Below, one piece after another: positions 3,924 through 28,553 of a DNA stretch of 64,000 nt. The translations under genes and the position numbers were made by a program. The stretch lies in IMG/VR virus record IMGVR_UViG_3300031951_021468, one strand, 5' to 3'. This stretch comes from an uncultured virus (IMG/VR IMGVR_UViG_3300031951_021468) (taxonomy: Duplodnaviria > Heunggongvirae > Uroviricota > Caudoviricetes). The notes under the pieces were generated by a model. That model saw nothing but the letters and a program-made list of their open reading frames with translations, was not told the DNA's origin and searched no databases. Within the stretch, counting starts at the first letter, position 1; every line of letters begins with the position of its first letter.

Positions 3924-4008
3924 TGGTGGGAGCAGCAGGACTCGAACCTACGAACTGTTTCCAGAGGAGATTTACAGTCTCCCGCAATTGCCTCTATGCG
4001 ATACTCCC
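3924..4008 (-). tRNA. tRNA-Tyr(GTA)
   Basis: Cloverleaf, GGAGA-CTGTAAA-TCTCC, long variable arm, CCA. Confidence 0.93.
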
Positions 4009-4053
4009 TTGCTTTATCTGTTATGGTCGTTAATGCCTTCGCATTGAATGTCG

Positions 4054-4145
4054 TGGTGGGTGATGGAGGAATTTCACCTCTCGCCATATTTCCCCACGTT
4101 CTGATGCGGCACATGTTTTACAGACATGCAGGGGAGTCATCACCC
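4054..4145 (-). ncRNA. D-arm-less tRNA-Tyr-like RNA (GTA loop)
   Basis: 8-bp acceptor GGGTGATG/CATCACCC+ACCA; CATGT-CTGTAAA-ACATG arm; no D arm; TCCCC can pair with GGGGA in the long variable region. Confidence 0.65.
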
Positions 4146-4231
4146 AATGGTATAGTGATAGTCGCTTTCCATTGATTGTTTTATTTTATGATCGGGGCGG
4201 TCATCTCAGACCGCAATGTACGAGAAACTTG

Positions 4232-4373
4232 TGGGACCTATCGGAGTTGAACCAATGACTGATGCAGAAGTCTGACCTTCGGTCCCGATTGCAAGACAGG
4301 CAGGATTCGAACCTGCGATCTCTGGGGGTATGCATCGGCCCAGCGTTTCATCCGCAAAACTTCCGTCAAGCAA
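4232..4373 (-). ncRNA. Tandem pair of aberrant tRNA-like modules
   Basis: Module A (4289-4373) has D, T and acceptor stems with a 12-nt anticodon loop; module B (4232-4286) has acceptor and T arm but no anticodon arm; neither encodes CCA. Confidence 0.5.
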
Positions 4374-4434
4374 TCAAATTGTTTGTATATTTATTATACG
4401 CATACCGTTTGAATTTTGTTTCAATGTGTAAAAA

Positions 4435-4512
4435 TGGTCTGAGCGATTGGATTTGAACCAATGACCTCTACTCTCCCAGAGTAGCATTCTAACCAAACTG
4501 AACTACGCCCAG
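4435..4512 (-). tRNA. tRNA-Pro(GGG)
   Basis: Cloverleaf, CTACT-CTGGGAG-AGTAG, CCA. Confidence 0.92.
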
Positions 4513-4529
4513 ATTTAAACAAAATATTT

Positions 4530-4604
4530 TGGTGGGCGGTACAGGTTTCGAACCTGTGACCCCTACAATGTCAATGTAGTGCTCTACCACTGAGCTAACC
4601 GCCC
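4530..4604 (-). tRNA. tRNA-Val(GAC)
   Basis: Cloverleaf, CTACA-TTGACAT-TGTAG, CCA. Confidence 0.95.
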
Positions 4605-4696
4605 GCGTTTTTAGAACAGCAGCAGAGCCCTGAACTGAAATTACCTGGATGCTACTGTTCTAAACCTTTTCGGTTATTTAAAATTATACTAATCGG

Positions 4697-4771
4697 TGGT
4701 GGGCATGACAGGATTCGAACCTGCAACTTGATGCCTGTAATGCACCCACGCTACCATTGCGTCACACGCCC
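4697..4771 (-). tRNA. tRNA-Val(TAC)
   Basis: Cloverleaf, GGTGC-ATTACAG-GCATC, CCA. Confidence 0.88.
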
Positions 4772-4777
4772 ACATTT

Positions 4778-5539
4778 TTATTTTGCGGTTTCCAGCTTTC
4801 TCCAATAACCTCTTGGAGGCTTAGAAACTCCTAGCTTTTTACATCTTTTTTCAACAGCTTTGTCTGAAACACCAAATTCTTTTGCAATTTGACAAGTTGG
4901 CTTTTTCCATATTATCATCTCAAGTTCTTCTTTTTCTAATCCAAATTTTATGTACTTAGAAGGCTTTGGTGGCTGTGATCGATTGTTGTGTATATGGCAT
5001 TTTTTACATCTTGTAGATGTAGGCCTGCTAATTTTACCACCACAATCCAAACACTTCTTCGCTTTGTGTTTTCCGCTAAATGTTGGAGTTTGAGAGTGAC
5101 AATTTGGACACAAAATTCGAAGATTAACCAATCTGTTATCACAATTATTGCCATTAATATGATCAAGCTGTAATGAAATCGGCTTGCCATTCCATAATGA
5201 TCCTAATTTGCATTCACTACACTCATAAACAAAAATATTTTCTCTTAACAATCGTTTTTTTAAATCGTGTGATTGAATGGGCCGATTATTTGATAAATAT
5301 TCTTCCAAAGGAATTCGCTTATTTAATCTCTTGCAGCCTTTACTTGCTCCGATACCCAAAGGAATATGAGAAATATCTATACAATCCTGAGCAATGCGCT
5401 GTTTGATTCGGCTATGTTGAGCACCACTTATAGAAAGGCCAAAGCTGCGTATTATGCCCGCAATGCTCGTGCAATTATTAACTCGAAGTTGAAAATTTTC
5501 TTTGGATTCAGTCCATATTATAGATGTCTTTTTGTTCAT
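4778..5539 (-). CDS. HNH homing endonuclease with C-terminal zinc ribbon/HTH
   Basis: CSEC...LQLDHINGNNCDNRLVNLRILCPNCHSQT; start set at MNKKTS because the track ORF overlaps tRNA-Pro. Confidence 0.88.
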   Translation of the reverse strand: MNKKTSIIWTESKENFQLRVNNCTSIAGIIRSFGLSISGAQHSRIKQRIAQDCIDISHIPLGIGASKGCKRLNKRIPLEEYLSNNRPIQSHDLKKRLLRENIFVYECSECKLGSLWNGKPISLQLDHINGNNCDNRLVNLRILCPNCHSQTPTFSGKHKAKKCLDCGGKISRPTSTRCKKCHIHNNRSQPPKPSKYIKFGLEKEELEMIIWKKPTCQIAKEFGVSDKAVEKRCKKLGVSKPPRGYWRKLETAK

Positions 5540-5588
5540 ATTGTTTTTTGTACAATAAATATAATATGAACAAAGATTTTTTGAAAAA

Positions 5589-5665
5589 TGGTCGGGGATA
5601 CAGGACTCGAACCTGCGACCTGACGCTCCCAAAGCGCCCGCTCCACCAAACTGAGCTAATCCCCG
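5589..5665 (-). tRNA. tRNA-Pro(TGG)
   Basis: Cloverleaf, GGCGC-TTTGGGA-GCGTC, CCA. Confidence 0.94.
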
Positions 5666-5773
5666 ATTTTTTTCATTGATGCCATCAGACTTCCATGGTT
5701 TGGTTGGCACATTGACTTTTTATTGTCCGTTCGCCCCGCATCAATATTTAATGTCCTACCTTAGAACCGTTCG

Positions 5774-5849
5774 TGGTGGAGCCAGAGAGACTCGAACTCT
5801 CGACCCCCTGCTTGCAAAGCAGGTGCTCTCCCAACTGAGCTATGGCCCC
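5774..5849 (-). tRNA. tRNA-Ala(TGC)
   Basis: Canonical cloverleaf with G3-U70, CCA. Confidence 0.96.
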
Positions 5850-5921
5850 GAAAATGTTCTGTTATCTATAATACGATCAGAATCACAAAAAATTAGCGAT
5901 TTTATGAAATCTGATTAAAAA

Positions 5922-5998
5922 TGGTGACCCGCCAGAGTGTCGATCTCTGTTTGCCGCGCTGAAAACGCGGAGTCCTAGCCAACGTAGACGAGCGGGCC
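5922..5998 (-). tRNA. tRNA-Glu(TTC)
   Basis: CCGCG-TTTTCAG-CGCGG; T loop ATCGACA; CCA. Confidence 0.88.
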
Positions 5999-6103
5999 GC
6001 TCGATAAGGGAGGCTTCACCTTCTCGCCTCCCCCGACTTGAGCGCCTTTCCGCTCGGGTCAGATGTCTATCCATCAGTCATCGCAGTAGGTGTTTAATCA
6101 CTG

Positions 6104-6481
6104 CTAAGTCTTGGGCGGTGTGTCTTCGCCAAAAGTACGATAGAAGCTCACTTCGATAGAGTAGCAAGTGTCGAGTTCGCCACACCAGCGAATCACCACC
6201 GTCCCCTTGATTGTACCGATTCTATAGAACGTCCATTCTACAGATGTGTCTTCCGAAGAAGACTTTTCTGCGAAAAGAATCGGCGTTCCGACCAAATCGT
6301 TCAAGTCGCCACATATGTCTTCCACCCAAACTGCCTCGCAGCAATCCTGAAAGTGTGACATGTGATATGCTTCCTGATCGTCTACTATAAAGGAGATTTT
6401 TTCCTCTTTCTTGGAGTAAAAGACCTCTCTCAAAGTCTTGCCTTTCAGCACTTCGAAGTTTGCGTATTCCCATCTGTTCAT
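6104..6481 (-). CDS. Conserved phage hypothetical protein
   Basis: HFQDCCEAVWVEDICGDL...WTFYRIGTIKGTVVIRW pattern; GGAG SD; ends TAG-CAG-TGA. Confidence 0.8.
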   Translation of the reverse strand: MNRWEYANFEVLKGKTLREVFYSKKEEKISFIVDDQEAYHMSHFQDCCEAVWVEDICGDLNDLVGTPILFAEKSSSEDTSVEWTFYRIGTIKGTVVIRWCGELDTCYSIEVSFYRTFGEDTPPKT

Positions 6482-6534
6482 CTAATTATGTTCTCCATAT
6501 CAGTAGATTAGCACCAGACTAACAAATGAAAATT

Positions 6535-6611
6535 TGGTGACCCCACGGAGTGTCGATCTCCGTTTTCCACCGTGAGATGGTGGTGTCACAGCCATCGTAG
6601 ACGATGGGGCC
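6535..6611 (-). tRNA. tRNA-Glu(CTC)
   Basis: CCACC-ATCTCAC-GGTGG; T loop ATCGACA; CCA. Confidence 0.86.
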
Positions 6612-6619
6612 GAAAATTT

Positions 6620-6696
6620 TGGTGGGGCTAGAGGGAATTGAACCCTCACCCAAGGTTTTTCAGACCTTTGTGCTCACCAAATTACACCAATGCCCC
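6620..6696 (-). tRNA. tRNA-Phe(GAA)
   Basis: AAGGT-CTGAAAA-ACCTT, CCA. Confidence 0.88.
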
Positions 6697-6750
6697 ATTT
6701 GTTACACAAACCTCGCCCTCTTTCGGGGGTATGCTCTACCAAATACGTTT

Positions 6751-7161
6751 TTATGATGAAGTAAGCTTTAATCCATGCGGAGTATACTTGTCCCCCTGCA
6801 ATGTCACAAACACAAATTTTGCCGATGCCGTGTGAATGCGTTCAGGGAATTTTTGATCTCTTGGTTGTCGATACGCCTCTACTTGAACTGTGATTGAATT
6901 GTTTCTTAATTCAATAATTTCAGCTTCGAAGAAAATTTGATCTCCCATCTGAGCAGCTTTGTGAAAAGTTATTTCCAATACCTTATATGTTACTGCGTTG
7001 TCACAGGACGATTCTGAAAACTGAAGAAGTTCGCTACAAGCCGCGGCTGCACAAAGATCAAGCTTTGCCATAAAAGCTCCGCCAAAAATTTGTGGCATCC
7101 TAAAATTGCAATGTTCAGGCATTACAATAAAATTACTTTGGTATTTGGTTCTTAAATTCAT
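6751..7161 (-). CDS. Hotdog-fold acyl-CoA thioesterase
   Basis: VMPEHCN...IFGGAFMAKLD...FHKAAQMGDQI...FVFV motif. Confidence 0.85.
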   Translation of the reverse strand: MNLRTKYQSNFIVMPEHCNFRMPQIFGGAFMAKLDLCAAAACSELLQFSESSCDNAVTYKVLEITFHKAAQMGDQIFFEAEIIELRNNSITVQVEAYRQPRDQKFPERIHTASAKFVFVTLQGDKYTPHGLKLTSS

Positions 7162-7210
7162 AATGTTCCAACTTTAATACGATCATAATTCACAAAAGAT
7201 TTTGCAAACA

Positions 7211-7285
7211 TGGTGCCACCGATAGGATTCGAACCTATGACCCCGCCCTTATCAGGGGCGTGCTCTACCACTGAGCTACGACGGC
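7211..7285 (-). tRNA. tRNA-Ile(GAT)
   Basis: CGCCC-CTGATAA-GGGCG, CCA. Confidence 0.94.
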
Positions 7286-7299
7286 ACTTTACTTTCCTC

Positions 7300-7475
7300 A
7301 TACTGTTTCGAAGATCGGCGTGGAATTGCGACGCCGCGTTTTACTTCTGATCACGTGCGTGATCCTTCTCTACCCCACGGGGCGTCCTACCATTAAACGA
7401 CCAGACACAAGTGCCTGCGTGGGACTCGAACCCACATTTCCCCTCCGCATCCGATTAGAGTTCTCTTCGAACTGA
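7300..7475 (-). ncRNA. Y-RNA (YrlA)-like circularly permuted tRNA mimic
   Basis: Order T arm (7419-7435), loop-closed acceptor stem (7402-7417), D arm (7383-7399), enclosed by nested long-range stems. Confidence 0.55.
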
Positions 7476-7580
7476 TTACCGATCAGATTTTATCGGAAAA
7501 TATCATCGGGGGCTATTTAACAACGGCTGCTCAGCAAAGAAGTTGTGCTTCCGTGGCGTTTAGCCCCTTCAAATTGCCAA

Positions 7581-7743
7581 TACGTTGTGCGTTAGGGAAT
7601 CGAACCCCATGCGCCGCCGCTATTTGCTGCCTTTCAACACATTCCTGTTGGCTCAGAAAATCATGTTGTTGTGGACTCGAACCACTCACCCACCAAGGGA
7701 ACTTCAGAATCGAACTGAATACATACCATTTGCGCACAACGTA
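7581..7743 (-). ncRNA. Structured RNA with three T-loop hairpins inside an 11-bp closing stem
   Basis: TACGTTGTGCG/CGCACAACGTA ends; three hairpins with TTCGATT, TTCGAGT and TTCGATT loops. Confidence 0.55.
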
Positions 7744-7822
7744 AATCACTGAGGGCTTTTGCCCTCATATTACATTTAAACCTATTTAATTTTCAATATA
7801 CATACGAATCTCTTCGATAATT

Positions 7823-7909
7823 TGGCAGAGGCAGGGGGACTTGAACCCCCACTTGCATTAACTGTCCCTGGTTTTGGAGACCAGTGTTTTGCCATTAAAC
7901 TATACCCCT
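7823..7909 (-). tRNA. tRNA-Trp(CCA) with extended variable region
   Basis: CTGGT-CTCCAAA-ACCAG; 17-nt variable region; CCA. Confidence 0.85.
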
Positions 7910-21196: not shown

Positions 21197-23002
21197 TTAA
21201 GAATTATAGTAGTTTAAAATTGTCTCTCTTGAACTAAAGCCTCTGCTTCTGGGAGAAACAATAAGTGTTGGGGATGATTGTGCGCACTTAAATACACTCC
21301 TCTTTGATCGATTCCAGGCATCACGTGCCGCCGACACAAAAACATCCTTGGGATAATTGTATGGGTCGCATTCGCAAAAATAATCAGTAGTTAACGTGTG
21401 ATTATCATAGGCTTCTTCCAGGTCTCTTACAGTCATCCTGCGTCGGATAATTTCGGCACAAATTCCAGAATACAGAGGATAATCAAATGGGTCTTCGCTA
21501 CTGTCTGCAAGCTCAGCCATGGGCTTGGTGCTTCCATCATAAAGATTGATTGGAATGATTTCATCCTCATATATTTCATTGATATATTTCGCCAAGCAAT
21601 TTACCTCTGATTTTGTCAGGTCACCAAGCGGCTGGAAAAGACCCACGCTGCCCACGTCATGGAAAGTAAACCATCCAAGTACATTTTCAGTGTGATTGCC
21701 CGTGGAAATAATAGCCGATTTAAAATAATGACAGATTGACAGGCCAAGCAATGTTCGACCTACAGCATCTAATGTAGTGTCCACCATCTGGGGAAGCTCT
21801 TCGCTGGCAAGGGGCATGCGACAACCATCTTCTGCAGATTCCAAGTAAGCATTTTGGAAAATCGACTTGGCATGATTTGTAAGATCGCCCACGGGCATCC
21901 AATACAGGGGGACCCCGAGCTTGTCAGCAATGTACTGAGCATTATTTTTAGTAATATCTCCATTATATTGGGAGGGATTACTAATGAAAACACAACGATC
22001 AGGCCCAAGCGCCTTGGCGCAAAGCGCTGCCACAACGGCGCTGTCTATGCCACCAGAAACGTGAACTTGGGCACGCTCTATGCCAGTTTGGTCCATCAAC
22101 TGACGCAAAGCATATTTCAGGGCACACCAGATAGTCTGGTATTTATCATTCTTTGAATATAGAAATCTCCTTTGATTACGCTTGTCAATTCCATCCCAAT
22201 CATTGTCAAACCAATTGAAAATTTTCCCCTTTTTTAAGGAGCAAGATATAATTTTTTCTTCGAAAGACGGAAGGATGTCAAACAGATTGCCCAAGGCATC
22301 ATAAACCATCGACCTACCGTCATAAACCATAAAGTTCTTAACAATATCTCCCACCCCCACGGCGTTAACATAAAAAATTCCTACTTTATGATCTCGTGCA
22401 AGATTAGAAAGCAAATTTTGACGAGCTGAATGCTTCTCATAAGTGTAGTAACTATAGTTGATGCAAAAGATCATGGAAAGATCAGGATTGAGGGCTTTAA
22501 GCTCTGCAACCAAGTTTCGGTCATGATCGGGTGCCCAGATATCCTCACAGATAAGAACGCCCGCCACCTGATCGCCAACCTGGAATGTGAATAGATTCTC
22601 ACCAGGAATAAAATATTTTCGATCTTCATGCTGAAAATCATTAGCCAACAAAATCTTGTCGTAAACAGCAAGAAGTTTTCCGTCTCTTGCGATCATAGCA
22701 CTGTTGTGGAGTCTGATGTTACCGTTAGGTTCTCTATCAGGCGTGGCAAATCTCGGTGCTCCAAAAATAGCAGTTTTGTTTGTGCCCTTAGTCGCTTTAA
22801 CAATTTGATCCACACACTCAAGGGCGTCATTGATAAAGTCGTCACTTTCAAAAAGCGACCCGCAATTATACCCAGTGACAGCAAGTTCTGGAAATATAAT
22901 CACGGAATTGTCGCTTGATTCTTCCACGGTGTTGATAATTTTCGCAGTATTCCCGTATAGGTCGCCCGTGCGGAGTTCTAATTGAGCAATAACAATGTTC
23001 AT
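21197..23002 (-). CDS. nadE: Glutamine-dependent NAD+ synthetase
   Basis: CN-hydrolase domain (FPEL, K, ICED) fused to the SGGIDS synthetase domain. Confidence 0.93.
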   Translation of the reverse strand: MNIVIAQLELRTGDLYGNTAKIINTVEESSDNSVIIFPELAVTGYNCGSLFESDDFINDALECVDQIVKATKGTNKTAIFGAPRFATPDREPNGNIRLHNSAMIARDGKLLAVYDKILLANDFQHEDRKYFIPGENLFTFQVGDQVAGVLICEDIWAPDHDRNLVAELKALNPDLSMIFCINYSYYTYEKHSARQNLLSNLARDHKVGIFYVNAVGVGDIVKNFMVYDGRSMVYDALGNLFDILPSFEEKIISCSLKKGKIFNWFDNDWDGIDKRNQRRFLYSKNDKYQTIWCALKYALRQLMDQTGIERAQVHVSGGIDSAVVAALCAKALGPDRCVFISNPSQYNGDITKNNAQYIADKLGVPLYWMPVGDLTNHAKSIFQNAYLESAEDGCRMPLASEELPQMVDTTLDAVGRTLLGLSICHYFKSAIISTGNHTENVLGWFTFHDVGSVGLFQPLGDLTKSEVNCLAKYINEIYEDEIIPINLYDGSTKPMAELADSSEDPFDYPLYSGICAEIIRRRMTVRDLEEAYDNHTLTTDYFCECDPYNYPKDVFVSAARDAWNRSKRSVFKCAQSSPTLIVSPRSRGFSSRETILNYYNS

Positions 23003-23030: not shown

Positions 23031-23357
23031 TTATACCACGGGTTTCCATGTGTTAAATTTTCTAAAAGCCTTTCTTTTTTCTCCCCAGATTGGTTCCGTG
23101 CAAATTGCAGTGTCTCCCATCTGGTCATCAGGCTCGTAAAAAGTAACAAATTTTATGTCATTCTCTTGGCAAACATAGCTTATTTTTTCCAATTCAAATG
23201 TATTTTCAACCGAGCAAAGAACAAGGTGGCAAGAATCGGGGCAGCCAAATTTAGCTCCCGATTCTTGCGCAGCATGACAGGCCTGAACCATCTGGTCCGC
23301 TACGCCAATGTCTTTTCTAACGAAAATATATATATAAGGCGCGGTAGTCTAGCTCAT
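23031..23357 (-). CDS. PTH2-like peptidyl-tRNA hydrolase with in-frame TAG at codon 3
   Basis: ATG-AGC-TAG-ACT...YIYIFVRKD...QMVQACHAA...FYEPD...TAI; ATG overlaps the upstream TGA; the track ORF (start 23291) lacks the conserved first strand. Confidence 0.75.
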
Positions 23358-24079
23358 GATTTTTCACCACTATCTATGGCACCAAGAGTTTCGTCAGTCC
23401 ATCCATTGTTTCCGCATTTTAAGCCCGTTGACGTTGAAGCATACTCTACTGTGGCGATTGCAAATGCAGGGAAGCTTTTATCCCAATAGGATATTTGCAC
23501 AATTTGATTTAAATCAAGCCACTGCGGACATTCATGCCAATATTCTTGCTTAAATTTAATTTCTCCGATCTTAATATTTGAAAGATCAACAATATTTACG
23601 TAATTAGGCGAATTACAGAACGGGTCATACCCCATTACAAAAGCAAAATCTGCATGGCACCATGCTTCATTATCCTTATAATCTTCTTCAATTTCTTTGT
23701 CCACAAGAGTAAAAGCAACTCCTTTATATACTACATGATGAAATCTGGGTATATAAAATTCTAAAAACTTAATGCAACCCTGTGGTTCAAGTTCAGCTAA
23801 TAATTTCATTTCTGGCAATGAATAGACAAATATTTTTTTGCTTTCACTTACTAGTGCGTACCATTCACCGTCATGTCTAAACGGATGAAACACAACACGC
23901 GGGGACTTAAAATCGGAAACCTCGTATGTTCCTATTTTAGTTTCTGAGTCCTCATTAACCTCATAGACATCAACATAGTGATATTTAATCTTGTGAACTT
24001 TTCCGTCACTAAACTTGCAAGGCTTTAAAAAACCTTCACCAAGGCGAGCAACATATGGCGGTTTGTATTCGGTAGTCAT
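23354..24079 (-). CDS. Hypothetical protein
   Basis: Start MTTEYK after AAAGGA, coupled to the upstream stop. Confidence 0.75.
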   Translation of the reverse strand: MTTEYKPPYVARLGEGFLKPCKFSDGKVHKIKYHYVDVYEVNEDSETKIGTYEVSDFKSPRVVFHPFRHDGEWYALVSESKKIFVYSLPEMKLLAELEPQGCIKFLEFYIPRFHHVVYKGVAFTLVDKEIEEDYKDNEAWCHADFAFVMGYDPFCNSPNYVNIVDLSNIKIGEIKFKQEYWHECPQWLDLNQIVQISYWDKSFPAFAIATVEYASTSTGLKCGNNGWTDETLGAIDSGEKS

Positions 24080-24080
24080 T

Positions 24081-24674
24081 TTAGTTTCCTTTGTATTTTT
24101 CCATAAGCCGATGATATTCTTTAAGTTCATTTTCTTCTCGTTCTTTTTTACGTTGTCTTTCGCGGTCGCGGGCATCTTTAATCTCTTGTGCTTTTTTCTC
24201 TTGCGCGGCTTTTTCTTTTTCGGTTTTCATATTGTCAATAACGCTGGTGTCCCAGAGTGCCTGTATAGGAATATCATAAGAATATTCTTCATCGGGACAG
24301 CACCCCCTCAAACATCCACGAGAAGAATATTCAACCGTGATATGGTCGTCGCCAATAGCATAAATTCGTTGAAACCTTTCTCCGCTTTCTCCCATTGTGA
24401 GCACGTAATAATCAGAAACCATTTTAATTTTTTCTTCAAAAGCTTTATATAGCTTTGACATTAAAATAACAGACCTTTCGGTCCAATTTTCGGATTGTTT
24501 ATCATAGTCTGCTGGCACCCAGGTCTCTGGGTCAGCAAGGGTTACAAGCTCGACGCCATCCCTAATACGAGGCGCTTGATAGTGGTCGAATGCCTGAGCC
24601 AGACTTCGTGATCCATAAGTTTCCAAAGTCTCAACCACTTGCAAATCTTCATTTATTACAATTTTAGGCCACAT
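24081..24674 (-). CDS. Hypothetical protein with C-terminal coiled coil
   Basis: Start MWPKIV overlapping the end of the upstream gene. Confidence 0.7.
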   Translation of the reverse strand: MWPKIVINEDLQVVETLETYGSRSLAQAFDHYQAPRIRDGVELVTLADPETWVPADYDKQSENWTERSVILMSKLYKAFEEKIKMVSDYYVLTMGESGERFQRIYAIGDDHITVEYSSRGCLRGCCPDEEYSYDIPIQALWDTSVIDNMKTEKEKAAQEKKAQEIKDARDRERQRKKEREENELKEYHRLMEKYKGN

Positions 24675-25107
24675 TCTCGGAAGAATCCTCCAAAATATAA
24701 GCGCTTTGCTTAAGTATATTTTCCCTTCTATCAAGACGATAATAAAATTTAGAAATAGATTTTGCAGTTTCGAGATTTAAAATATCCCCGAAATTATCAG
24801 CCCAAAATTTTTGACTCTTTGATACTGGACAAGCCATTGATCTCAGGATTGTACTAGAAGTATACATTGAGTTTGAAACAATAATTGGAGTCTCGTACTC
24901 CCAAGATGGGTCTTGCTTTTTGGGCATTGTAAATCCTTTTCTCCAATCTTTTCCACGAAGAATTGCATAAAGCATGTAATCTGCTGCAGTAAGTTTGTAT
25001 TCTGAGTTAGAATTTACAATTTCACTCCATTTAGACCGAAGCTTTTCGTAGCCATCAGGAGAGTTAAAGAACGTCGATGTTATGTTTTTATTAAGTGTGT
25101 TTTTCAT
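24664..25107 (-). CDS. Hypothetical protein (LYAILRGK motif), first gene after the amber minigene
   Basis: 147-aa ORF; start region complementary to 25171-25181. Confidence 0.8.
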   Translation of the reverse strand: MKNTLNKNITSTFFNSPDGYEKLRSKWSEIVNSNSEYKLTAADYMLYAILRGKDWRKGFTMPKKQDPSWEYETPIIVSNSMYTSSTILRSMACPVSKSQKFWADNFGDILNLETAKSISKFYYRLDRRENILKQSAYILEDSSENVA

Positions 25108-25223
25108 ATTTGTATTTCTGTTTGTAATCGTGGGCTATGCAAAGCCATGAACGAAGTTAGTGAATGGAATTACAAATATGATTAAGGCGGACGAATGACC
25201 TACAACATAGGTGAGACCTCCTT
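25104..25223 (-). promoter_or_regulatory. Amber-containing minigene with anti-start helix (translational switch)
   Basis: SD AAGGAGGT 25216-25223; ATG TTG TAG GTC ATT CGT CCG CCT TAA 25208-25182; TCATATTTGTA pairs with TACAAATATGA over the downstream ATG. Confidence 0.7.
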
Positions 25224-25378
25224 TTTAATTGAGCCGTTAATTTGCCCAATAAAATAAATCAATCTTGATGAAATTATCAGGGGACGAGCCTGAACATCTC
25301 TGCAAATATGGATGGGTTTTTCCATCGTCTTTTTCCTGTGGCGCAGAGTTAATCCACTTGTACCAGAACACCATATAT

Positions 25379-25454
25379 TGGTGAAGGGAGTGGGGATCGA
25401 ACCCACGACATGCTGATTAAGAGTCAGCTGCTCTACCGACTGAGCTATCCCTCC
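25379..25454 (-). tRNA. tRNA-Lys(CTT)
   Basis: GCTGA-CTCTTAA-TCAGC, CCA. Confidence 0.95.
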
Positions 25455-25465
25455 ATGAAAAATTC

Positions 25466-25541
25466 TGGTGGGCCAGGCGGGGCTCGAACCCGCGACCCGC
25501 GGTTTAAAAGACCGCTGCTCTACCAACTGAGCTACTGACCC
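25466..25541 (-). tRNA. tRNA-Lys(TTT)
   Basis: GCGGT-CTTTTAA-ACCGC, CCA. Confidence 0.95.
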
Positions 25542-25609
25542 AAAATTTAAAGTTTTGGCCCCGAAGGTTTTCTGATCGCAGGAAAAGTTAAAAATAACTT
25601 TTGATTTGC

Positions 25610-25700
25610 AGACACATACGCAAAGAGGCCAGATTCTAGCCTCGGAAAGAACTAGAACCTAGTAATGTTTAGGTTTGCGTTTAAGAATGTTGTGTCTCAT
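25610..25700 (-). promoter_or_regulatory. Lys-rich leader ORF with alternative hairpins upstream of the tRNA-Lys genes
   Basis: MRHNILKRKPKHY-TAG (25700-25659), three AAA codons, overlapping 1:2, 2:3 and 3:4 pairings. Confidence 0.45.
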
Positions 25701-25757
25701 TTTGAATTACCTTAATTCTCGTGTTATATCTTTAATACCTGCTTTTCAACAAAAAAG

Positions 25758-25973
25758 TTAGCATCTTTTCCGAAAAATTTCAAAAAATAAAGCAATTAAG
25801 AAAATAGCAAGCACGGAAATGCCCAAGCTGGCAAATATATTTAGGCTCAAAATCAATGATAAGGCCTTTGCTATAATTAAAATAAAAATGCTTATGACGG
25901 CCCCATACATGACCCCTTTAAGAAATACGCCGTCTGGTTGATCAGATTCTTGATAATTGTTTTTGTTTGACAT
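25758..25973 (-). CDS. Small membrane protein (two TM helices)
   Basis: MSNKNNY...two hydrophobic stretches; track start overlaps a tRNA. Confidence 0.65.
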   Translation of the reverse strand: MSNKNNYQESDQPDGVFLKGVMYGAVISIFILIIAKALSLILSLNIFASLGISVLAIFLIALFFEIFRKRC

Positions 25974-25997
25974 GACTCTGTATTGTTTTAGAAACCT

Positions 25998-26072
25998 TGG
26001 CGCTCTAGGCGGGACTCGAACCCGCGACATGCCCTTTTAGAGAGGGCCACTCTACCACTGAGTTACTAGAGC
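25998..26072 (-). tRNA. Amber suppressor tRNA (anticodon CTA) #1
   Basis: Full cloverleaf, GCCCT-CTCTAAA-AGGGC, G73, CCA. Confidence 0.9.
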
Positions 26073-26093
26073 GCGTATTTTTAATATATTGTC

Positions 26094-26164
26094 TGCTCCA
26101 CACGGGAATCGAACCCGCGACCAAGGTTTTAGAGACCCCAGCTCTACCATTGAGCTAATGGAGC
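26094..26164 (-). tRNA. Amber suppressor tRNA (anticodon CTA) #2, no encoded CCA
   Basis: Cloverleaf, GGGGT-CTCTAAA-ACCTT, acceptor GCTCCAT/GTGGAGC, A73. Confidence 0.82.
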
Positions 26165-26238
26165 AAGCAATATAATTATAATACGTATTTTTAAATAAAA
26201 AGTAGGCAATTTGGGACTAAAAACCCAAAAAAAATCAT

Positions 26239-26433: not shown

Positions 26434-26791
26434 TGGTGGAGGCAGCGGGATTTGAACCCGCTTGTTGTCCGTACAGAGCCTATGCTCGCCACAAGGTTCT
26501 CCTCATATTAATCTTAAGTCAAGCTTTGGCTAGAGGCCAGCACTTTCTTGACAGCAGCTTGATTAATATCGCTTTTTCAACTACAAGCCGAAGTTTCAAA
26601 GCTAAGTCTGATTTATTTTACAATCCCCATTAACTACAGACTCGTCTCAGGTTCATGCGCCAGCTTAATTAAGCAGCGAAAGCGAAGTTGTTTTCCGCAT
26701 TTACTTTTTGCATCCTTTGTTATCGCGGCCAAGGATACATCCGCGCCTTGCAAACATAAGATAGCAACGTCAATCGATCCCTTATGCCCCC
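26434..26791 (-). ncRNA. ssrA: tmRNA, tag peptide (A)AENNFAFAA
   Basis: GGGGGCA/TGCCTCC-ACCA acceptor with G3-U70, T arm, tag ORF 26698-26669. Confidence 0.93.
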
Positions 26792-26838: not shown

Positions 26839-27600
26839 TCACTCTAAATCAAAAAGTTCATCAGTTGAAAGATTACCATCTTTATCTATTTCCCCAAGAT
26901 TATATGGGGCAAACTGAGCCCCGTTATATCCCCAGCCGAAGTCCCCAGTCCTCAAAATAGGCTTTTGCGCCTTGGCATGCCCGTCAGACCAAAGTACTAC
27001 GCCATGCTTATTGTGTCGGCCCTGAAATGTTGGGAAATCGAAAGAAGGTGGCTCTAAGTATCCCGTGCCCTCTAAAACAGGATTGTCATAAGCCCATGTA
27101 TTTAGTCTCGCATTTGATGCAAAAGCGACTGTCTCAGATGGAAACTCAATCGATGAAGCATTTACGGGAATGGGATTTTCTTCCCAGTTCGGAGGAGAAT
27201 AAGTTGACGGACTCAAATAAGCATAATTATATCCATACCCAGAGAAATTCATACTTCCCGTAACTTGAGCATTAAAAGATGAATCCTTGTAAATACCATT
27301 GTTTCGAGTATAAGGATATAAAAGGCCTTCCTCAACTCTAAGTTCTTGTTCGTCTTCTTCCCAACATCCCCACCAATAAACCACACCATGCTCATCAGGC
27401 ACAGAAACTCTCATTAAGGTATCATCGTAGTCAGTATTGTAAAGCTGCCAGGAAATACCAAGTTGGCGCATGTTGGAAATCGACTGAGTTTTCTTGGCAG
27501 CTTCCTTTGCTTGTGAAAAAACTGGGAAAAGGATTGCAGCCAAAACCGCGATAATTGCGATCACAACAAGTAATTCAATAAGTGTAAAAGCCTGTCTCAT
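26839..27600 (-). CDS. Prepilin-type N-terminal cleavage/methylation domain protein (H-X9-DG C-terminus)
   Basis: [25 protein letters not shown]...[16 protein letters not shown]. Confidence 0.92.
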
Positions 27601-27677
27601 AATAATTCTAATATAATTGGCCCAACTACAATCAGTTGAGCCAATTATTATACGTTATATAATGCAGTTTTGTTGCA

Positions 27678-28553
27678 TTACGGACATGGAGTGTTGCCGA
27701 GTTTGTATGGGTCCCAAAATGATTCTGCGCCCCGATCTCTCAGGTTGTTCAGAATTGCATTAGCTGCAACGGCTCTTGAACTAGTGTCGCCCTGAACCAT
27801 ATTCAATGGTCCATTATATCGGTTATTAATCAATCGCAGAGCTTCAGCGTCAGATGGCGTGTTTGGTCCACCATTCCATCTAAAGAGATAGGAGTTGCCG
27901 AGATTCTTCCAATACAACGGGTAACTGCTGCTGCACACATTAAATGTGCCAGTGTATCCATTAAGTCTTCCAACGAATCGGGGAAGAACATTATAATAGC
28001 TTGCATCAACCATAATCAAAGTATTGCTTGGTTCTGCTATTTCGCCCATATTAAGCCCCCCGCCGATTGATGACGTGCCCGCCTGAGATGTAAACACATA
28101 ATTGTTAACACCATAGCTGTTTTGTCCGCCGTAAGATCGGAATGCAGGTTCAGTGTCAGAACCGAAAGTATCAACGCCAGCCCAGGCATTTGGCTTGGTA
28201 GGTGCCTTGAAAATATCATTATTTTTCATATATGGTTGCAGAAGCTGGTTAAAGAAAATAACATTTCTTGCACTAGTTCCTACAACGCTATCGGCATACG
28301 CCTGCCCCCGAGCAGCAATGGCGCGGGCATAATCGGGGTTTTGTGTACCATTAAGTCGGTACGGAAACAGCATGTCATCATAATCGCCGACATACAGCTG
28401 CATTGATGTTCCAATCTGTTTAACTTGGGTTAAACCAACAGTTTTCTTGGCGGCAAGCTTGGCCTGAGAAAAGACGGGGAAAAGAATCGCAGCTAAAATA
28501 GCAATAATTGCGATAACAACAAGAAGTTCGATGAGCGTAAAGGCTTTCTTCAT
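27678..28553 (-). CDS. Prepilin-type N-terminal cleavage/methylation domain protein
   Basis: [32 protein letters not shown]...YVGDYDD. Confidence 0.92.

What the first reader, a model, noticed from the sequence alone, without database searches (positions are those of the whole stretch)
23031..26164. Candidate new system: amber-readthrough-gated operon next to phage amber suppressor tRNAs
Seen: within about 3 kb on one strand lie two CUA-anticodon tRNAs, a minigene with TAG at codon 3 placed to control the first gene of a translationally coupled 4-gene string, and a PTH2-like last gene that also has TAG at codon 3. Elsewhere TAG ends only two genes by my scan and never interrupts the long ORFs. 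Known: RF1 alone terminates at UAG, and peptidyl-tRNA hydrolases recycle drop-off peptidyl-tRNA. Inference: UAG works here as a conditional switch, not as a recoded sense codon. The operon would turn on only when UAG is read through (suppressor tRNA accumulation or RF1 impairment), giving a timer or termination-stress sensor. The 147-aa gene could act on termination; that part is speculative.
Basis: partly seen in the sequence, partly recalled or inferred. Interest (0 to 1): 0.92.

Follow-up and report, generated by a model that had tools for sequence, protein, structure and literature searches.

The report
Suppressor-tRNA-gated phage hydrolase operon
A giant phage that otherwise uses the normal genetic code hides a small operon behind two UAG stop codons that only its own UAG-reading tRNAs should be able to override, a design kept in scores of other phages that gives these puzzling tRNAs a natural target.

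Summary
The window is part of a 379-kb phage-like contig that uses the standard code. TAG ends about 35 of 405 predicted genes. I found no other gene interrupted by TAG.

The last gene has the Pth2 fold and starts ATG-AGC-TAG. Of 90 clusters of homologues, 56 have the same early in-frame stop. In all 41 of those 56 where the held DNA includes a suppressor tRNA, the anticodon matches the stop (TAG with CUA or UUA, TGA with UCA, TAA with UUA). Cultured jumbo phages CBB, GAP32, Arash, ME3 and RsoM2USA have the early stop too.

The minigene is also conserved. Before homologues of the 147-aa gene, 15 of 27 loci carry a short leader with an early TAG, an Arg/Lys-x-Pro-Pro end (RGPP or RAPP in some) and a stop. 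RNA just after that stop pairs with the next gene's start site.

Best reading: a switch that senses suppressor activity, with two checkpoints. What the proteins do is inferred only. My searches found no paper describing this. Earlier notes of this scan report the same kind of leader in other genomes.

The parts
26093..26165 (-). Suppressor tRNA 1, anticodon CUA. Discriminator A; no CCA encoded.
   Evidence: ARAGORN; Rfam RF00005 at 60.5 bits; sequence.
25998..26072 (-). Suppressor tRNA 2, anticodon CUA. Discriminator G; CCA encoded.
   Evidence: ARAGORN; Rfam RF00005 at 69 bits; sequence.
25216..25223 (-). Shine-Dalgarno sequence AAGGAGGT of the leader, 7 nt before its ATG.
   Evidence: Sequence. 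Only 5 of 405 predicted genes have AAGGAGG upstream.
25182..25208 (-). Leader ORF M-L-amber-V-I-R-P-P-stop. The TAG is at 25202-25200, Arg-Pro-Pro at 25193-25185 and TAA at 25184-25182.
   Evidence: Sequence. Equivalent leaders precede the U-family gene in 15 of 27 contexts elsewhere. The strict pattern occurs 18 times with TAG against 3 with TAA and 1 with TGA in 90 loci.
25171..25181 (-). 5' arm of the hairpin, starting directly after the leader's stop codon.
   Evidence: MFE fold. Duplex with the start region is -13.5 kcal/mol against a control mean of -3.9, and none of the control windows is as stable.
25104..25114 (-). 3' arm of the hairpin. It contains the ATG (25107-25105) of the 147-aa gene.
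   Evidence: MFE fold and duplex test.
24664..25107 (-). 147-aa gene, here called family U. It is the conserved partner of the PTH2-like gene; its function is unknown.
   Evidence: blastp to ORFs directly upstream of PTH2-like genes gives E 8e-18 to 5e-3. An HMM finds it in 30 loci. It is fused to the PTH2-like domain in L013. No Pfam family and no fold match.
24081..24674 (-). 197-aa gene. Its start overlaps the end of the 147-aa gene by 11 nt. It is not conserved next to the module.
   Evidence: Sequence. No family. No relative in the related loci.
23354..24079 (-). 241-aa gene. It starts 1 nt after the previous stop. It is not conserved next to the module.
   Evidence: Sequence. No family. 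No relative in the related loci.
23031..23357 (-). PTH2-like gene, 108 codons with TAG as codon 3 (23351-23349). Its ATG overlaps the TGA of the 241-aa gene.
   Evidence: Translation. AlphaFold2 model pLDDT 94.9. Foldseek matches to Pth2 structures at TM 0.70-0.78. PF01981 is matched by 34 of 36 family members at E<=1. The N-terminus aligns with homologues from the ATG.
26434..26791 (-). tmRNA gene directly upstream of the two suppressor tRNAs. It is a neighbour; membership of the module is not shown.
   Evidence: ARAGORN; Rfam RF00023 at 91.3 bits. A tmRNA also lies beside the module in L016 and L033.

Best explanation
This is a translational switch that senses suppressor-tRNA activity, and it has two checkpoints.

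Checkpoint 1 is the leader.
- Ribosomes start at its strong Shine-Dalgarno site.
- Without amber suppression they terminate at UAG after two codons. A hairpin then keeps the AUG of the 147-aa gene paired.
- When one of the phage's two CUA tRNAs reads the UAG, the ribosome goes on through Val-Ile-Arg-Pro-Pro to UAA.
- It pauses there, because the end is a RAPP-like arrest or slow-termination motif.
- The paused ribosome covers the 11 nt directly after the stop codon, which form the 5' arm of the hairpin. That frees the AUG.
- The 147-, 197- and 241-aa genes are then translated through coupling.

Checkpoint 2 is the last gene, a Pth2-fold protein. It needs a second suppression event at its own codon 3. 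Its output should therefore rise roughly with the square of suppression efficiency.

What is shown:
- the sequence features themselves;
- their conservation in related phages;
- the match between the type of stop codon and the anticodon of the neighbouring tRNA;
- the Pth2 fold.

What is inferred:
- readthrough, pausing, opening of the hairpin and coupling;
- that the Pth2-like protein, with its partner U, hydrolyses an ester-linked tRNA species produced by suppression or belonging to the suppressor. That would be either a clean-up of the side effects of readthrough or a negative feedback on the suppressor.
For: Genetic code:
- ORFs of 100 aa or more cover 88.9% of the contig under code 11.
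- Of 405 predicted genes, 297 end in TAA, 73 in TGA and 35 in TAG.
- None of 7 candidate TAG-spanning frames has a domain running across the TAG.

Early stop in the PTH2-like family (130 loci, 90 clusters at 80% identity):
- 56 clusters have a clean early stop 1-7 codons after the start. It is TAG in 52, TGA in 3 and TAA in 1.
- 41 of these 56 hold a suppressor tRNA in the fetched DNA, and all 41 are cognate: 36 CUA and 1 UUA with TAG, 3 UCA with TGA, 1 UUA with TAA.
- All 61 suppressor tRNAs in the representative loci lie on the gene's strand, at a median distance of 803 nt.
- The base after the early stop is A in 27, G in 26, C in 3 and T in 0 of 56. This genome's own TAG terminators are followed by T in 16 of 35.

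Cultured phages of standard-code hosts carry the early stop: CBB and GAP32 (M-A-Q-amber), Arash (M-L-amber), RsoM2USA (M-L-amber) and ME3 (M-T-amber).

Leader:
- Found in 15 of 27 contexts upstream of U-family genes, for example M-K-H-amber-L-I-R-P-P-stop...R-A-R-G-P-P-stop and ...P-R-A-P-P-Y-stop.
- The strict pattern occurs 18 times with TAG, 3 with TAA and 1 with TGA.
- The RNA from the second Pro codon onward pairs with the start region of U better than at least 96% of control windows in 12 of 15 cases (folds).

Published work: RAPP and RGPP near the C-terminus of small upstream ORFs are published arrest motifs that regulate downstream genes (passages of PMC12992588).

Reality of the TAGs: both stand unchanged in contigs of three other studies.
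Against: - No experiment of any kind. Suppression, pausing and induction are all inferred.
- This window's leader ends I-R-P-P, not the tested RAPP or RGPP. At 8 codons it is far shorter than the published arrest peptides.
- Pro-Pro codons always read CCNCC, which is also an anti-Shine-Dalgarno sequence. In the MFE fold of this window they pair with the leader's own Shine-Dalgarno site. RNA-level selection could therefore explain part of their conservation.
- 12 of 27 U contexts show no such leader, and 3 of 15 fail the pairing test. The control windows were not matched for composition.
- 15 of 52 early-TAG clusters show no suppressor tRNA in the held DNA. Nine of those are contigs under 3 kb, but L056, L114 and L127 have 10-12 kb.
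- The tree does not force more than one origin for the TGA/UCA pairs.
- The window's own protein misses Pfam's PTH2 cut-off (13.1 against 23 bits). The family has Gln or Asp where the Pth2 alignments have the Gly-Lys loop.
Confidence: 0.68

Rival explanations
1. The leader gates the operon without any peptide-mediated arrest. A ribosome that reads through the TAG simply runs on to the TAA and melts the hairpin in passing or while terminating, as in ordinary translational coupling. The Pro-Pro codons would then be kept as RNA, being CCNCC anti-Shine-Dalgarno sequence.
For: In L005, L080, L082 and L132 the Pro codons themselves lie in the 5' arm that pairs with the next gene's Shine-Dalgarno site. 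In this window they pair with the leader's own Shine-Dalgarno site in the MFE fold. The leader is only 8 codons long.
Against: In this window and in L064, L065, L066, L067 and L062 the 5' arm starts at or after the stop codon, so the Pro codons lie outside it. An Arg or Lys one to two residues before Pro-Pro recurs with different codons: R-P-P, R-G-P-P, R-A-P-P, K-S-P-P, K-A-P-P and K-P-P.
Confidence: 0.15
2. The early stops end tiny upstream ORFs. The real proteins start by re-initiation at the near-cognate codon just after the stop, independently of any suppressor tRNA.
For: The codon after the early stop is ATT, ATC, ATA, GTT, GTA, GTC or GTG in 36 of 56 clusters. In L024, L064, L065 and L067 an ATG follows the stop directly.
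Against: The type of stop follows the anticodon of the neighbouring tRNA in 41 of 41 clusters. TAA ends 297 of 405 genes in this genome but is the early stop in only 1 of 56 clusters. In this window the next codon is ACT, and no ATG, GTG or TTG follows until after the first strand of the fold.
Confidence: 0.08
3. The phage reads TAG as a sense codon throughout (code 15-like recoding), and these two TAGs are ordinary sense codons.
For: Two CUA tRNAs are present. Some relatives (L005, L017, L018, L026, L030) also have TAG inside the PTH2-like gene, so some of these phages are probably recoded.
Against: Code 11 already gives 88.9% coverage. About 35 of 405 genes end in TAG. None of 7 candidate frames has a domain across a TAG. 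The ATG-x-TAG pattern before open frames is no commoner than with TAA or TGA (7 against 11 and 12).
Confidence: 0.03
4. The TAGs are assembly errors, or the last gene is a decaying pseudogene.
For: Gene callers truncate the gene to 86 aa, and public records annotate it in pieces or not at all.
Against: Contigs of three studies show no difference at either TAG. The same early stop occurs in 56 of 90 clusters. The model is confident, with pLDDT 94.9.
Confidence: 0.01

Closest known systems
RAPP-like regulatory arrest peptides (ApdA, ApdP, ApcA; SecM with RAGP; RAPP/RGPP upstream ORFs of Streptomyces lividans)
   Same: A short upstream ORF ends in an Arg-x-Pro-Pro type motif close to its stop, on the same strand and just before a regulated gene. 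Relatives of this leader carry exact RGPP (L066, L082, L097) and RAPP (L005). RAPP and RGPP tolerate varied and short N-terminal contexts (passages of PMC12992588).
   Different: The input is new. The arrest motif is reached only if an in-frame UAG at codon 2-6 is suppressed. No secretion or membrane-insertion signal is involved. The leader is 8-17 codons long, against tens to hundreds in the published cases. This window has R-P-P, not RAPP or RGPP. The stop codon follows the motif directly.
Leader-peptide translational attenuation with a stalled ribosome (ermC/ermB, cat and cmlA leaders, secM-secA, mifM-yidC2; named from memory)
   Same: A hairpin hides the start site of the next gene. Its 5' arm lies where a ribosome paused at the end of the leader would sit.
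   Different: The pause is licensed by a suppressor tRNA, not by a drug or by failure of export.
prfB (release factor 2) autoregulation by an early in-frame UGA (from memory)
   Same: An early in-frame stop codon in a translation-factor gene measures the balance between termination and an alternative decoding event.
   Different: Here the alternative event is suppression by a dedicated tRNA, not a +1 frameshift. Whether the product feeds back on the sensed quantity is unknown.
Stop-codon recoding in phages with suppressor tRNAs (Borges et al., preprint 10.1101/2021.08.26.457843)
   Same: A phage-encoded suppressor tRNA is proposed to delay translation of genes that carry in-frame stops (passages read).
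   Different: That model concerns genome-wide recoding of late and lysis genes. Here the genome keeps the standard code and I found only one operon gated. The preprint's text does not contain the word hydrolase.
Peptidyl-tRNA hydrolase 2 (Pth2, PF01981; archaeal and eukaryotic)
   Same: Same fold: TM 0.70-0.78 to 3erj, 2zv3, 1rlk, 1q7s and 1xty. Shared Gln-x-x-His-Ala and Thr-Ala-x-x-x-x-Pro stretches in the alignments.
   Different: It is a separate, large phage-associated family, with 2593 representatives at E<=1e-10. It lacks the Gly-Lys loop and has Glu where the alignments put the Asp of the Asp-Ala-Gly stretch. It is linked to suppressor tRNAs. Its activity is untested.

Membership tests
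Pth2 (PF01981) | Scores above Pfam's gathering cut-off. | tested here: not met
   The window's protein scores 13.1 bits (E 0.12) against a cut-off of 23. Among family members, 34 of 36 match at E<=1 and the best reaches 1.2e-12.
Pth2 (PF01981) | Pth2 alpha/beta fold. | tested here: met
   The model has pLDDT 94.9. The 13 Foldseek matches at E<=0.001 are Pth2 structures plus Atu0240 (2gax), with TMq 0.70-0.78.
Pth2 (PF01981) | Catalytic residues. From memory, a Lys in the Gly-Lys loop and an Asp in Asp-Ala-Gly of the Sulfolobus enzyme. | tested here: inconclusive
   Profile alignments to 2zv3 and 24bt put Gln (Asp in this window's protein) at the Gly-Lys position and an invariant Glu at the Asp position. 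The residue roles are recalled, not read from any source here.
Pth2 (PF01981) | Hydrolyses peptidyl-tRNA. | not testable with these tools
   Needs an enzyme assay.
RAPP-like arrest peptides | RAPP or RGPP (or RAGP) motif at the arrest site. | tested here: not met
   This window's leader ends I-R-P-P. Relatives have RGPP (L066, L082, L097), RAPP (L005), ARPP (L060) and IRPP (L064, L065).
RAPP-like arrest peptides | Small ORF on the same strand just upstream of the regulated gene, with the motif near its C-terminus. | tested here: met
   The motif is the last three residues, and the stop lies 74 nt before the next ATG. The Pro-Pro motif lies 54-80 nt before the U start in 14 of 15 leaders.
RAPP-like arrest peptides | Ribosome arrest shown. 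| not testable with these tools
   Needs toeprinting or a PURE-system assay.
Leader-peptide attenuation | A structure hides the start site of the next gene and is opened by a ribosome paused in the leader. | tested here: met
   An 11-bp stem joins 25181-25171 and 25114-25104, which includes the AUG. The duplex beats all control windows here and at least 96% of them in 12 of 15 loci. The opening itself is inferred.
Code-15-like recoded phage | TAG inside many genes and not used as a terminator. | tested here: not met
   About 35 of 405 genes end in TAG. No domain spans a TAG in 7 candidates.

The most novel reading that the evidence does not exclude
The suppressor tRNA, the leader, family U and the Pth2-like hydrolase together form a self-contained homeostat for the state of the genetic code. 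The two UAG checkpoints measure how strongly UAG is being read as sense. The hydrolase, guided by U (or by the HD-like partner in other phages), then removes the acyl group from the suppressor tRNA, or from peptidyl-tRNAs left by readthrough, and so clamps suppression at a tolerable level. Such a module would let a standard-code phage carry a suppressor tRNA safely. It would be the stepping stone from the standard code to a recoded one. It would also explain the orphan suppressor tRNAs of cultured jumbo phages.
Probability: 0.25. Interest if true: 0.93.

Novelty: new variant of a known kind. Interest (0 to 1): 0.86.

Why it matters
- Orphan suppressor tRNAs. Many large phages of standard-code hosts carry suppressor tRNAs for which no target gene is known. 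The XacN1 paper says so explicitly (passages of PMC5852040). This finding supplies a conserved target whose stop codon changes together with the tRNA's anticodon.
- A new sensing input. It points to a natural RNA-and-peptide device that reports stop-codon suppression. That is a new input for arrest-peptide switches, and a ready-made part for work on genetic-code expansion.
- Annotation. Public records truncate or miss the gene in CBB, GAP32, Arash and RsoM2USA.
- Code change in phages. The model of how phages change their code becomes testable in phages that can be grown in the laboratory.

Tried and rejected
- Relatives of the 147-aa protein. A scan of viral contigs with it found none. tblastn of the operon proteins against L001-L044 found only NadE. 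Its relatives appeared only after the metagenome loci were added.
- Other TAG-interrupted genes. Seven frames with coding-like segments on both sides of a TAG turned out to be neighbouring genes or non-coding frames.
- Function of family U. It has no Pfam family. Foldseek gave nothing at E<=0.001, VIA-align's best Z was 4.2, and the Atlas gave only unnamed clusters.
- Binding of U to the PTH2-like protein. The complex prediction gave no answer, with a score of 0.00.
- Promoters and terminators. The promoter scan was no better than shuffles: 8 sites against 10.6 expected.
- Leaders with other stops. No convincing TGA- or TAA-type leader was seen in the loci that carry UCA or UUA tRNAs.
- Leaders in cultured phages. 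None was seen in the held stretches of XacN1, CBB, GAP32, RaK2, RsoM2USA, RAS14, Arash or ME3.
- Transcription. An RNA run holds two 151-nt contigs over 24890-25040 and 25060-25210. Transcription is not shown by this.
- Amino acid inserted at UAG. It could not be told from the tRNAs. Their nearest relatives in the genome are the tRNA-Lys genes, with discriminator A in one and G in the other.
- One search used the wrong frame and was repeated.


Full report
**What is in the window**

All features lie on the minus strand. In order they are:
- a tmRNA gene (26791-26434);
- two tRNAs with anticodon CUA (26165-26093 and 26072-25998);
- a 71-codon hydrophobic ORF;
- tRNA-Lys(UUU) and tRNA-Lys(CUU);
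- a 27-base minigene (25208-25182);
- four tightly packed genes of 147, 197, 241 and 108 codons.

ARAGORN and Rfam agree on the RNAs.

The window is part of a single 378,848-bp contig with 34 tRNAs and a tmRNA. The two CUA tRNAs are the only suppressors in it.

The minigene reads M-L-amber-V-I-R-P-P-stop behind AAGGAGGT. The last gene starts ATG-AGC-TAG, and its ATG overlaps the TGA of the gene before it.

Contigs of three further DNA runs from three studies cover both TAGs without a single difference. The TAGs are not errors.

**The genome uses the standard code**
- ORFs of 100 aa or more cover 88.9% of the contig under code 11.
- A simple gene set of 405 ORFs ends in TAA 297 times, TGA 73 times and TAG 35 times. 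In the window the counts are 54, 17 and 3 of 74.
- Eight frames had coding-like segments on both sides of a TAG. I scanned seven of them, and no Pfam or PHROG domain crosses the TAG in any.
- ATG followed by 1-5 codons, then a stop, then an open coding frame occurs 7 times with TAG, 11 with TAA and 12 with TGA. Early TAGs are thus not a habit of this genome.
- Among the TAG cases, only the last gene of the operon has clearly coding-like sequence between the stop and the next start codon.

**The last gene is a Pth2-fold protein that needs the TAG to be read**
- Pfam gives nothing at E<=0.01 for the window's protein.
- When the family is scanned member by member, 34 of 36 match PF01981, with a best E of 1.2e-12.
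- An AlphaFold2 model built on 36 sequences has pLDDT 94.9.
- Its Foldseek matches at E<=0.001 are archaeal and human Pth2 structures and Atu0240, at TM 0.70-0.78.
- In alignments the stretch between the TAG and the next ATG forms the first strand and the start of the first helix. The upstream ATG lines up with the start of full-length homologues.
- The family is large: 5197 representatives at E<=0.001 and 2593 at E<=1e-10.
- It differs from canonical Pth2 at the Gly-Lys loop. Its substrate is therefore open.

**The early stop is conserved and follows the tRNA next to it**

I collected 44 viral loci, 79 metagenome loci besides the window's own and 7 loci of cultured phages. That makes 130 loci, or 90 clusters at 80% identity.

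| Class | Clusters | Breakdown |
|---|---|---|
| Clean early in-frame stop, 1-7 codons after a start codon, with no ATG before the first strand | 56 | TAG 52, TGA 3, TAA 1 |
| Ambiguous | 7 | |
| No early stop | 27 | |

- In 41 of the 56 the held DNA contains a suppressor tRNA, and in all 41 it is cognate. With TAG there are 36 CUA and 1 UUA, which can read UAG by wobble (established genetics of ochre suppressors, from memory). With TGA there are 3 UCA, and with TAA 1 UUA.
- With these totals, the chance that the three UCA tRNAs fall on the three TGA genes by random pairing is 1 in 10,660 (my arithmetic).
- The family also sits next to CUA tRNAs when it has no early stop, in 10 of 27 such clusters.
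- All 61 suppressor tRNAs in the representative loci are on the gene's strand, at a median of 803 nt and 39 of them within 1 kb.
- The base after the early stop is a purine in 53 of 56 and never T. This genome's real TAG terminators are followed by T in 16 of 35. From memory, T after a stop favours termination and a purine favours amber suppression.

Results against:
- 15 early-TAG clusters show no suppressor in the held DNA. Nine are contigs under 3 kb, but three have 10-12 kb.
- A quick tree scatters the three TGA rows among TAG rows. Its well-supported branches do not force more than one origin.

**Cultured phages**

tblastn found the family in 35 phage records.
- Pectobacterium phage CBB and Cronobacter phage GAP32 start M-A-Q-amber, with a CUA tRNA 3-4 kb downstream.
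- Salmonella phage Arash starts M-L-amber. ARAGORN reads a CUA anticodon in a tRNA 1.3 kb downstream, which the record calls tRNA-Phe.
- Ralstonia phage RsoM2USA starts M-L-amber.
- Acinetobacter phage ME3 (the same length and position as L009) starts M-T-amber, with a CUA tRNA about 0.4 kb (411 nt) upstream.
- In XacN1 and RAS14 the domain is fused behind an HD-like domain and has no early stop. RaK2 has none.
- The public records annotate the gene truncated or not at all.

**The 147-aa gene is a conserved partner; the middle two genes are not**

A first search found no relatives of the 147-aa protein.

With the metagenome loci in hand, ORFs directly upstream of the PTH2-like gene match it at E 8e-18 to 5e-3. 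An HMM finds this family, U, in 30 loci. It is always on the same strand and adjacent to the PTH2-like gene, and in L013 it is fused to it.

U has no Pfam family, no fold match and a middling model with pLDDT 72.

The 197- and 241-aa proteins have no relatives in these loci.

**The minigene is conserved, and so is its geometry**

Upstream of U genes, 15 of 27 distinct contexts carry a Shine-Dalgarno site, a start, 1-5 sense codons in all (the start included), TAG, 3-40 further codons with Pro-Pro (one has a single Pro), usually directly before the stop, and then a stop. Examples:
- M-K-H-amber-L-I-R-P-P-stop;
- M-R-amber-L-R-P-P-P-Q-stop;
- M-L-amber-...-R-A-R-G-P-P-stop;
- M-S-amber-...-P-R-A-P-P-Y-stop.

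Twelve contexts have no such leader. One of those is cut by the contig end.

Over the 90 representative loci and both strands, the strict pattern occurs 18 times with TAG, 3 with TAA and 1 with TGA. Eight of the 18 lie within 200 nt of a U gene. Three others precede a further small family, in L022, L107 and L041.

Folding shows the same plan in most loci. RNA that starts at or just after the leader's stop pairs with the Shine-Dalgarno site or AUG of the next gene.

In this window an 11-bp stem joins 25181-25171 to 25114-25104, which holds the AUG.

I compared the duplex between the 33 nt from the second Pro codon and the start region with about 390 random windows of the same locus. It is matched by at most 4% of them in 12 of 15 cases. 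L062, L005 and L132 fail with my fixed windows.

From remembered ribosome footprints, a ribosome with Pro-Pro-stop in its P and A sites would cover the 5' arm. One terminating at the TAG would stop about 10 nt short of it.

**How it most likely works**

See Best explanation for the steps. RAPP and RGPP near the end of small upstream ORFs are published arrest motifs with loose demands on the preceding sequence (passages of PMC12992588). For PMC10951233, PMC7897499 and PMC10987492 I saw only titles and abstract starts.

This window's R-P-P is not one of the tested motifs. From memory, R-x-P-P and a C-terminal Pro before a stop also slow ribosomes. I did not read those papers here.

Gating of the same module has two solutions, a stop inside the gene or a stop in a leader, and this window has both. 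That argues that the selected property is expression only while the suppressor works. This fits a protein that deals with the results of suppression or restrains it. It does not fit one needed to set suppression up.

**Literature**
- Four term searches found no paper that links a Pth2-like gene, or an amber-gated leader, with phage suppressor tRNAs.
- The Borges et al. preprint does not contain the word hydrolase.
- The library lacks most subscription journals, and I opened no supplements.

**Earlier notes of this scan**

Read after my own analysis, these notes describe the same kind of amber-gated Pro-Pro leader in six other genomes. They are unchecked AI notes, not independent evidence. They do mean the scan has met this element before.

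What this report adds:
- the match between stop codon and anticodon for the PTH2-like gene;
- the examples in cultured phages;
- family U as a partner of the PTH2-like gene.

**Verdict**

The mechanism is well supported by comparison but untested at the bench. I rate it a new variant of a known kind: an arrest-leader switch with a new input.

Noticed in passing
window 26434-26791 (-): A tmRNA gene (tag AENNFAFAA) sits directly upstream of the two suppressor tRNAs. A tmRNA also lies beside the module in L016 and L033. From memory, tmRNA helps cells cope with readthrough caused by suppressor tRNAs.
   Followed up: partly
L009:6297-6857, L018:6518-7138, L058:5302-5835, L052:3464-4000: A second partner family with an HD-like motif lies just downstream of the PTH2-like gene in many loci. 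In XacN1, RAS14, L025 and L086 it is fused in front of it. The Pfam HD matches are only weak, E 0.006-0.016 and below the cut-off.
   Followed up: partly
L026:6314-6865, L111:6643-7272, L129:1997-2452: A third small family recurs downstream of the PTH2-like gene in at least 11 loci. It has Trp/Arg-rich motifs and no Pfam hit.
   Followed up: no
L022 from 6310, L107 from 595, L041 from 5617: Amber-gated leaders ending K-P-P-stop precede another conserved family of about 100 aa, 53-57 nt downstream. The leader device is therefore used for more than one gene family.
   Followed up: partly
Many metagenome loci, e.g. L111, L119, L127, L134, L138: In one large branch the peptide before the early stop is conserved as ...G-F-T-amber-V, with Phe two residues before the stop. 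This may tune termination against suppression.
   Followed up: no
L104 (early TAG; tRNA 391 nt upstream): Here the neighbouring suppressor has anticodon UUA, while its sister locus L008 has CUA at the equivalent place. This looks like an anticodon change that still reads UAG by wobble.
   Followed up: no
L005, L017, L018, L026, L030: These homologues carry a further TAG inside the PTH2-like gene, so those phages are probably recoded. The family spans both standard-code and recoded phages.
   Followed up: no
window 21197-23002 (-): A glutamine-dependent NAD synthetase gene follows the operon. NAD synthetase genes also lie near the module in L038-L040, L014 and XacN1.
   Followed up: no
window 25758-25973 (-): A 71-codon hydrophobic ORF is wedged between the CUA tRNAs and the tRNA-Lys pair. 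It has no family.
   Followed up: no
window 26839-28553 (-) and 3924-7909 (-): There are two pilin-like genes with an N-terminal methylation motif and an array of 12 tRNA genes. Only 90 of 405 genes have even a GGAG or GAGG upstream, so the leader's AAGGAGGT stands out.
   Followed up: no
L058 6301-6375 (Salmonella phage Arash): The record annotates this tRNA as tRNA-Phe, but ARAGORN reads anticodon CUA.
   Followed up: no
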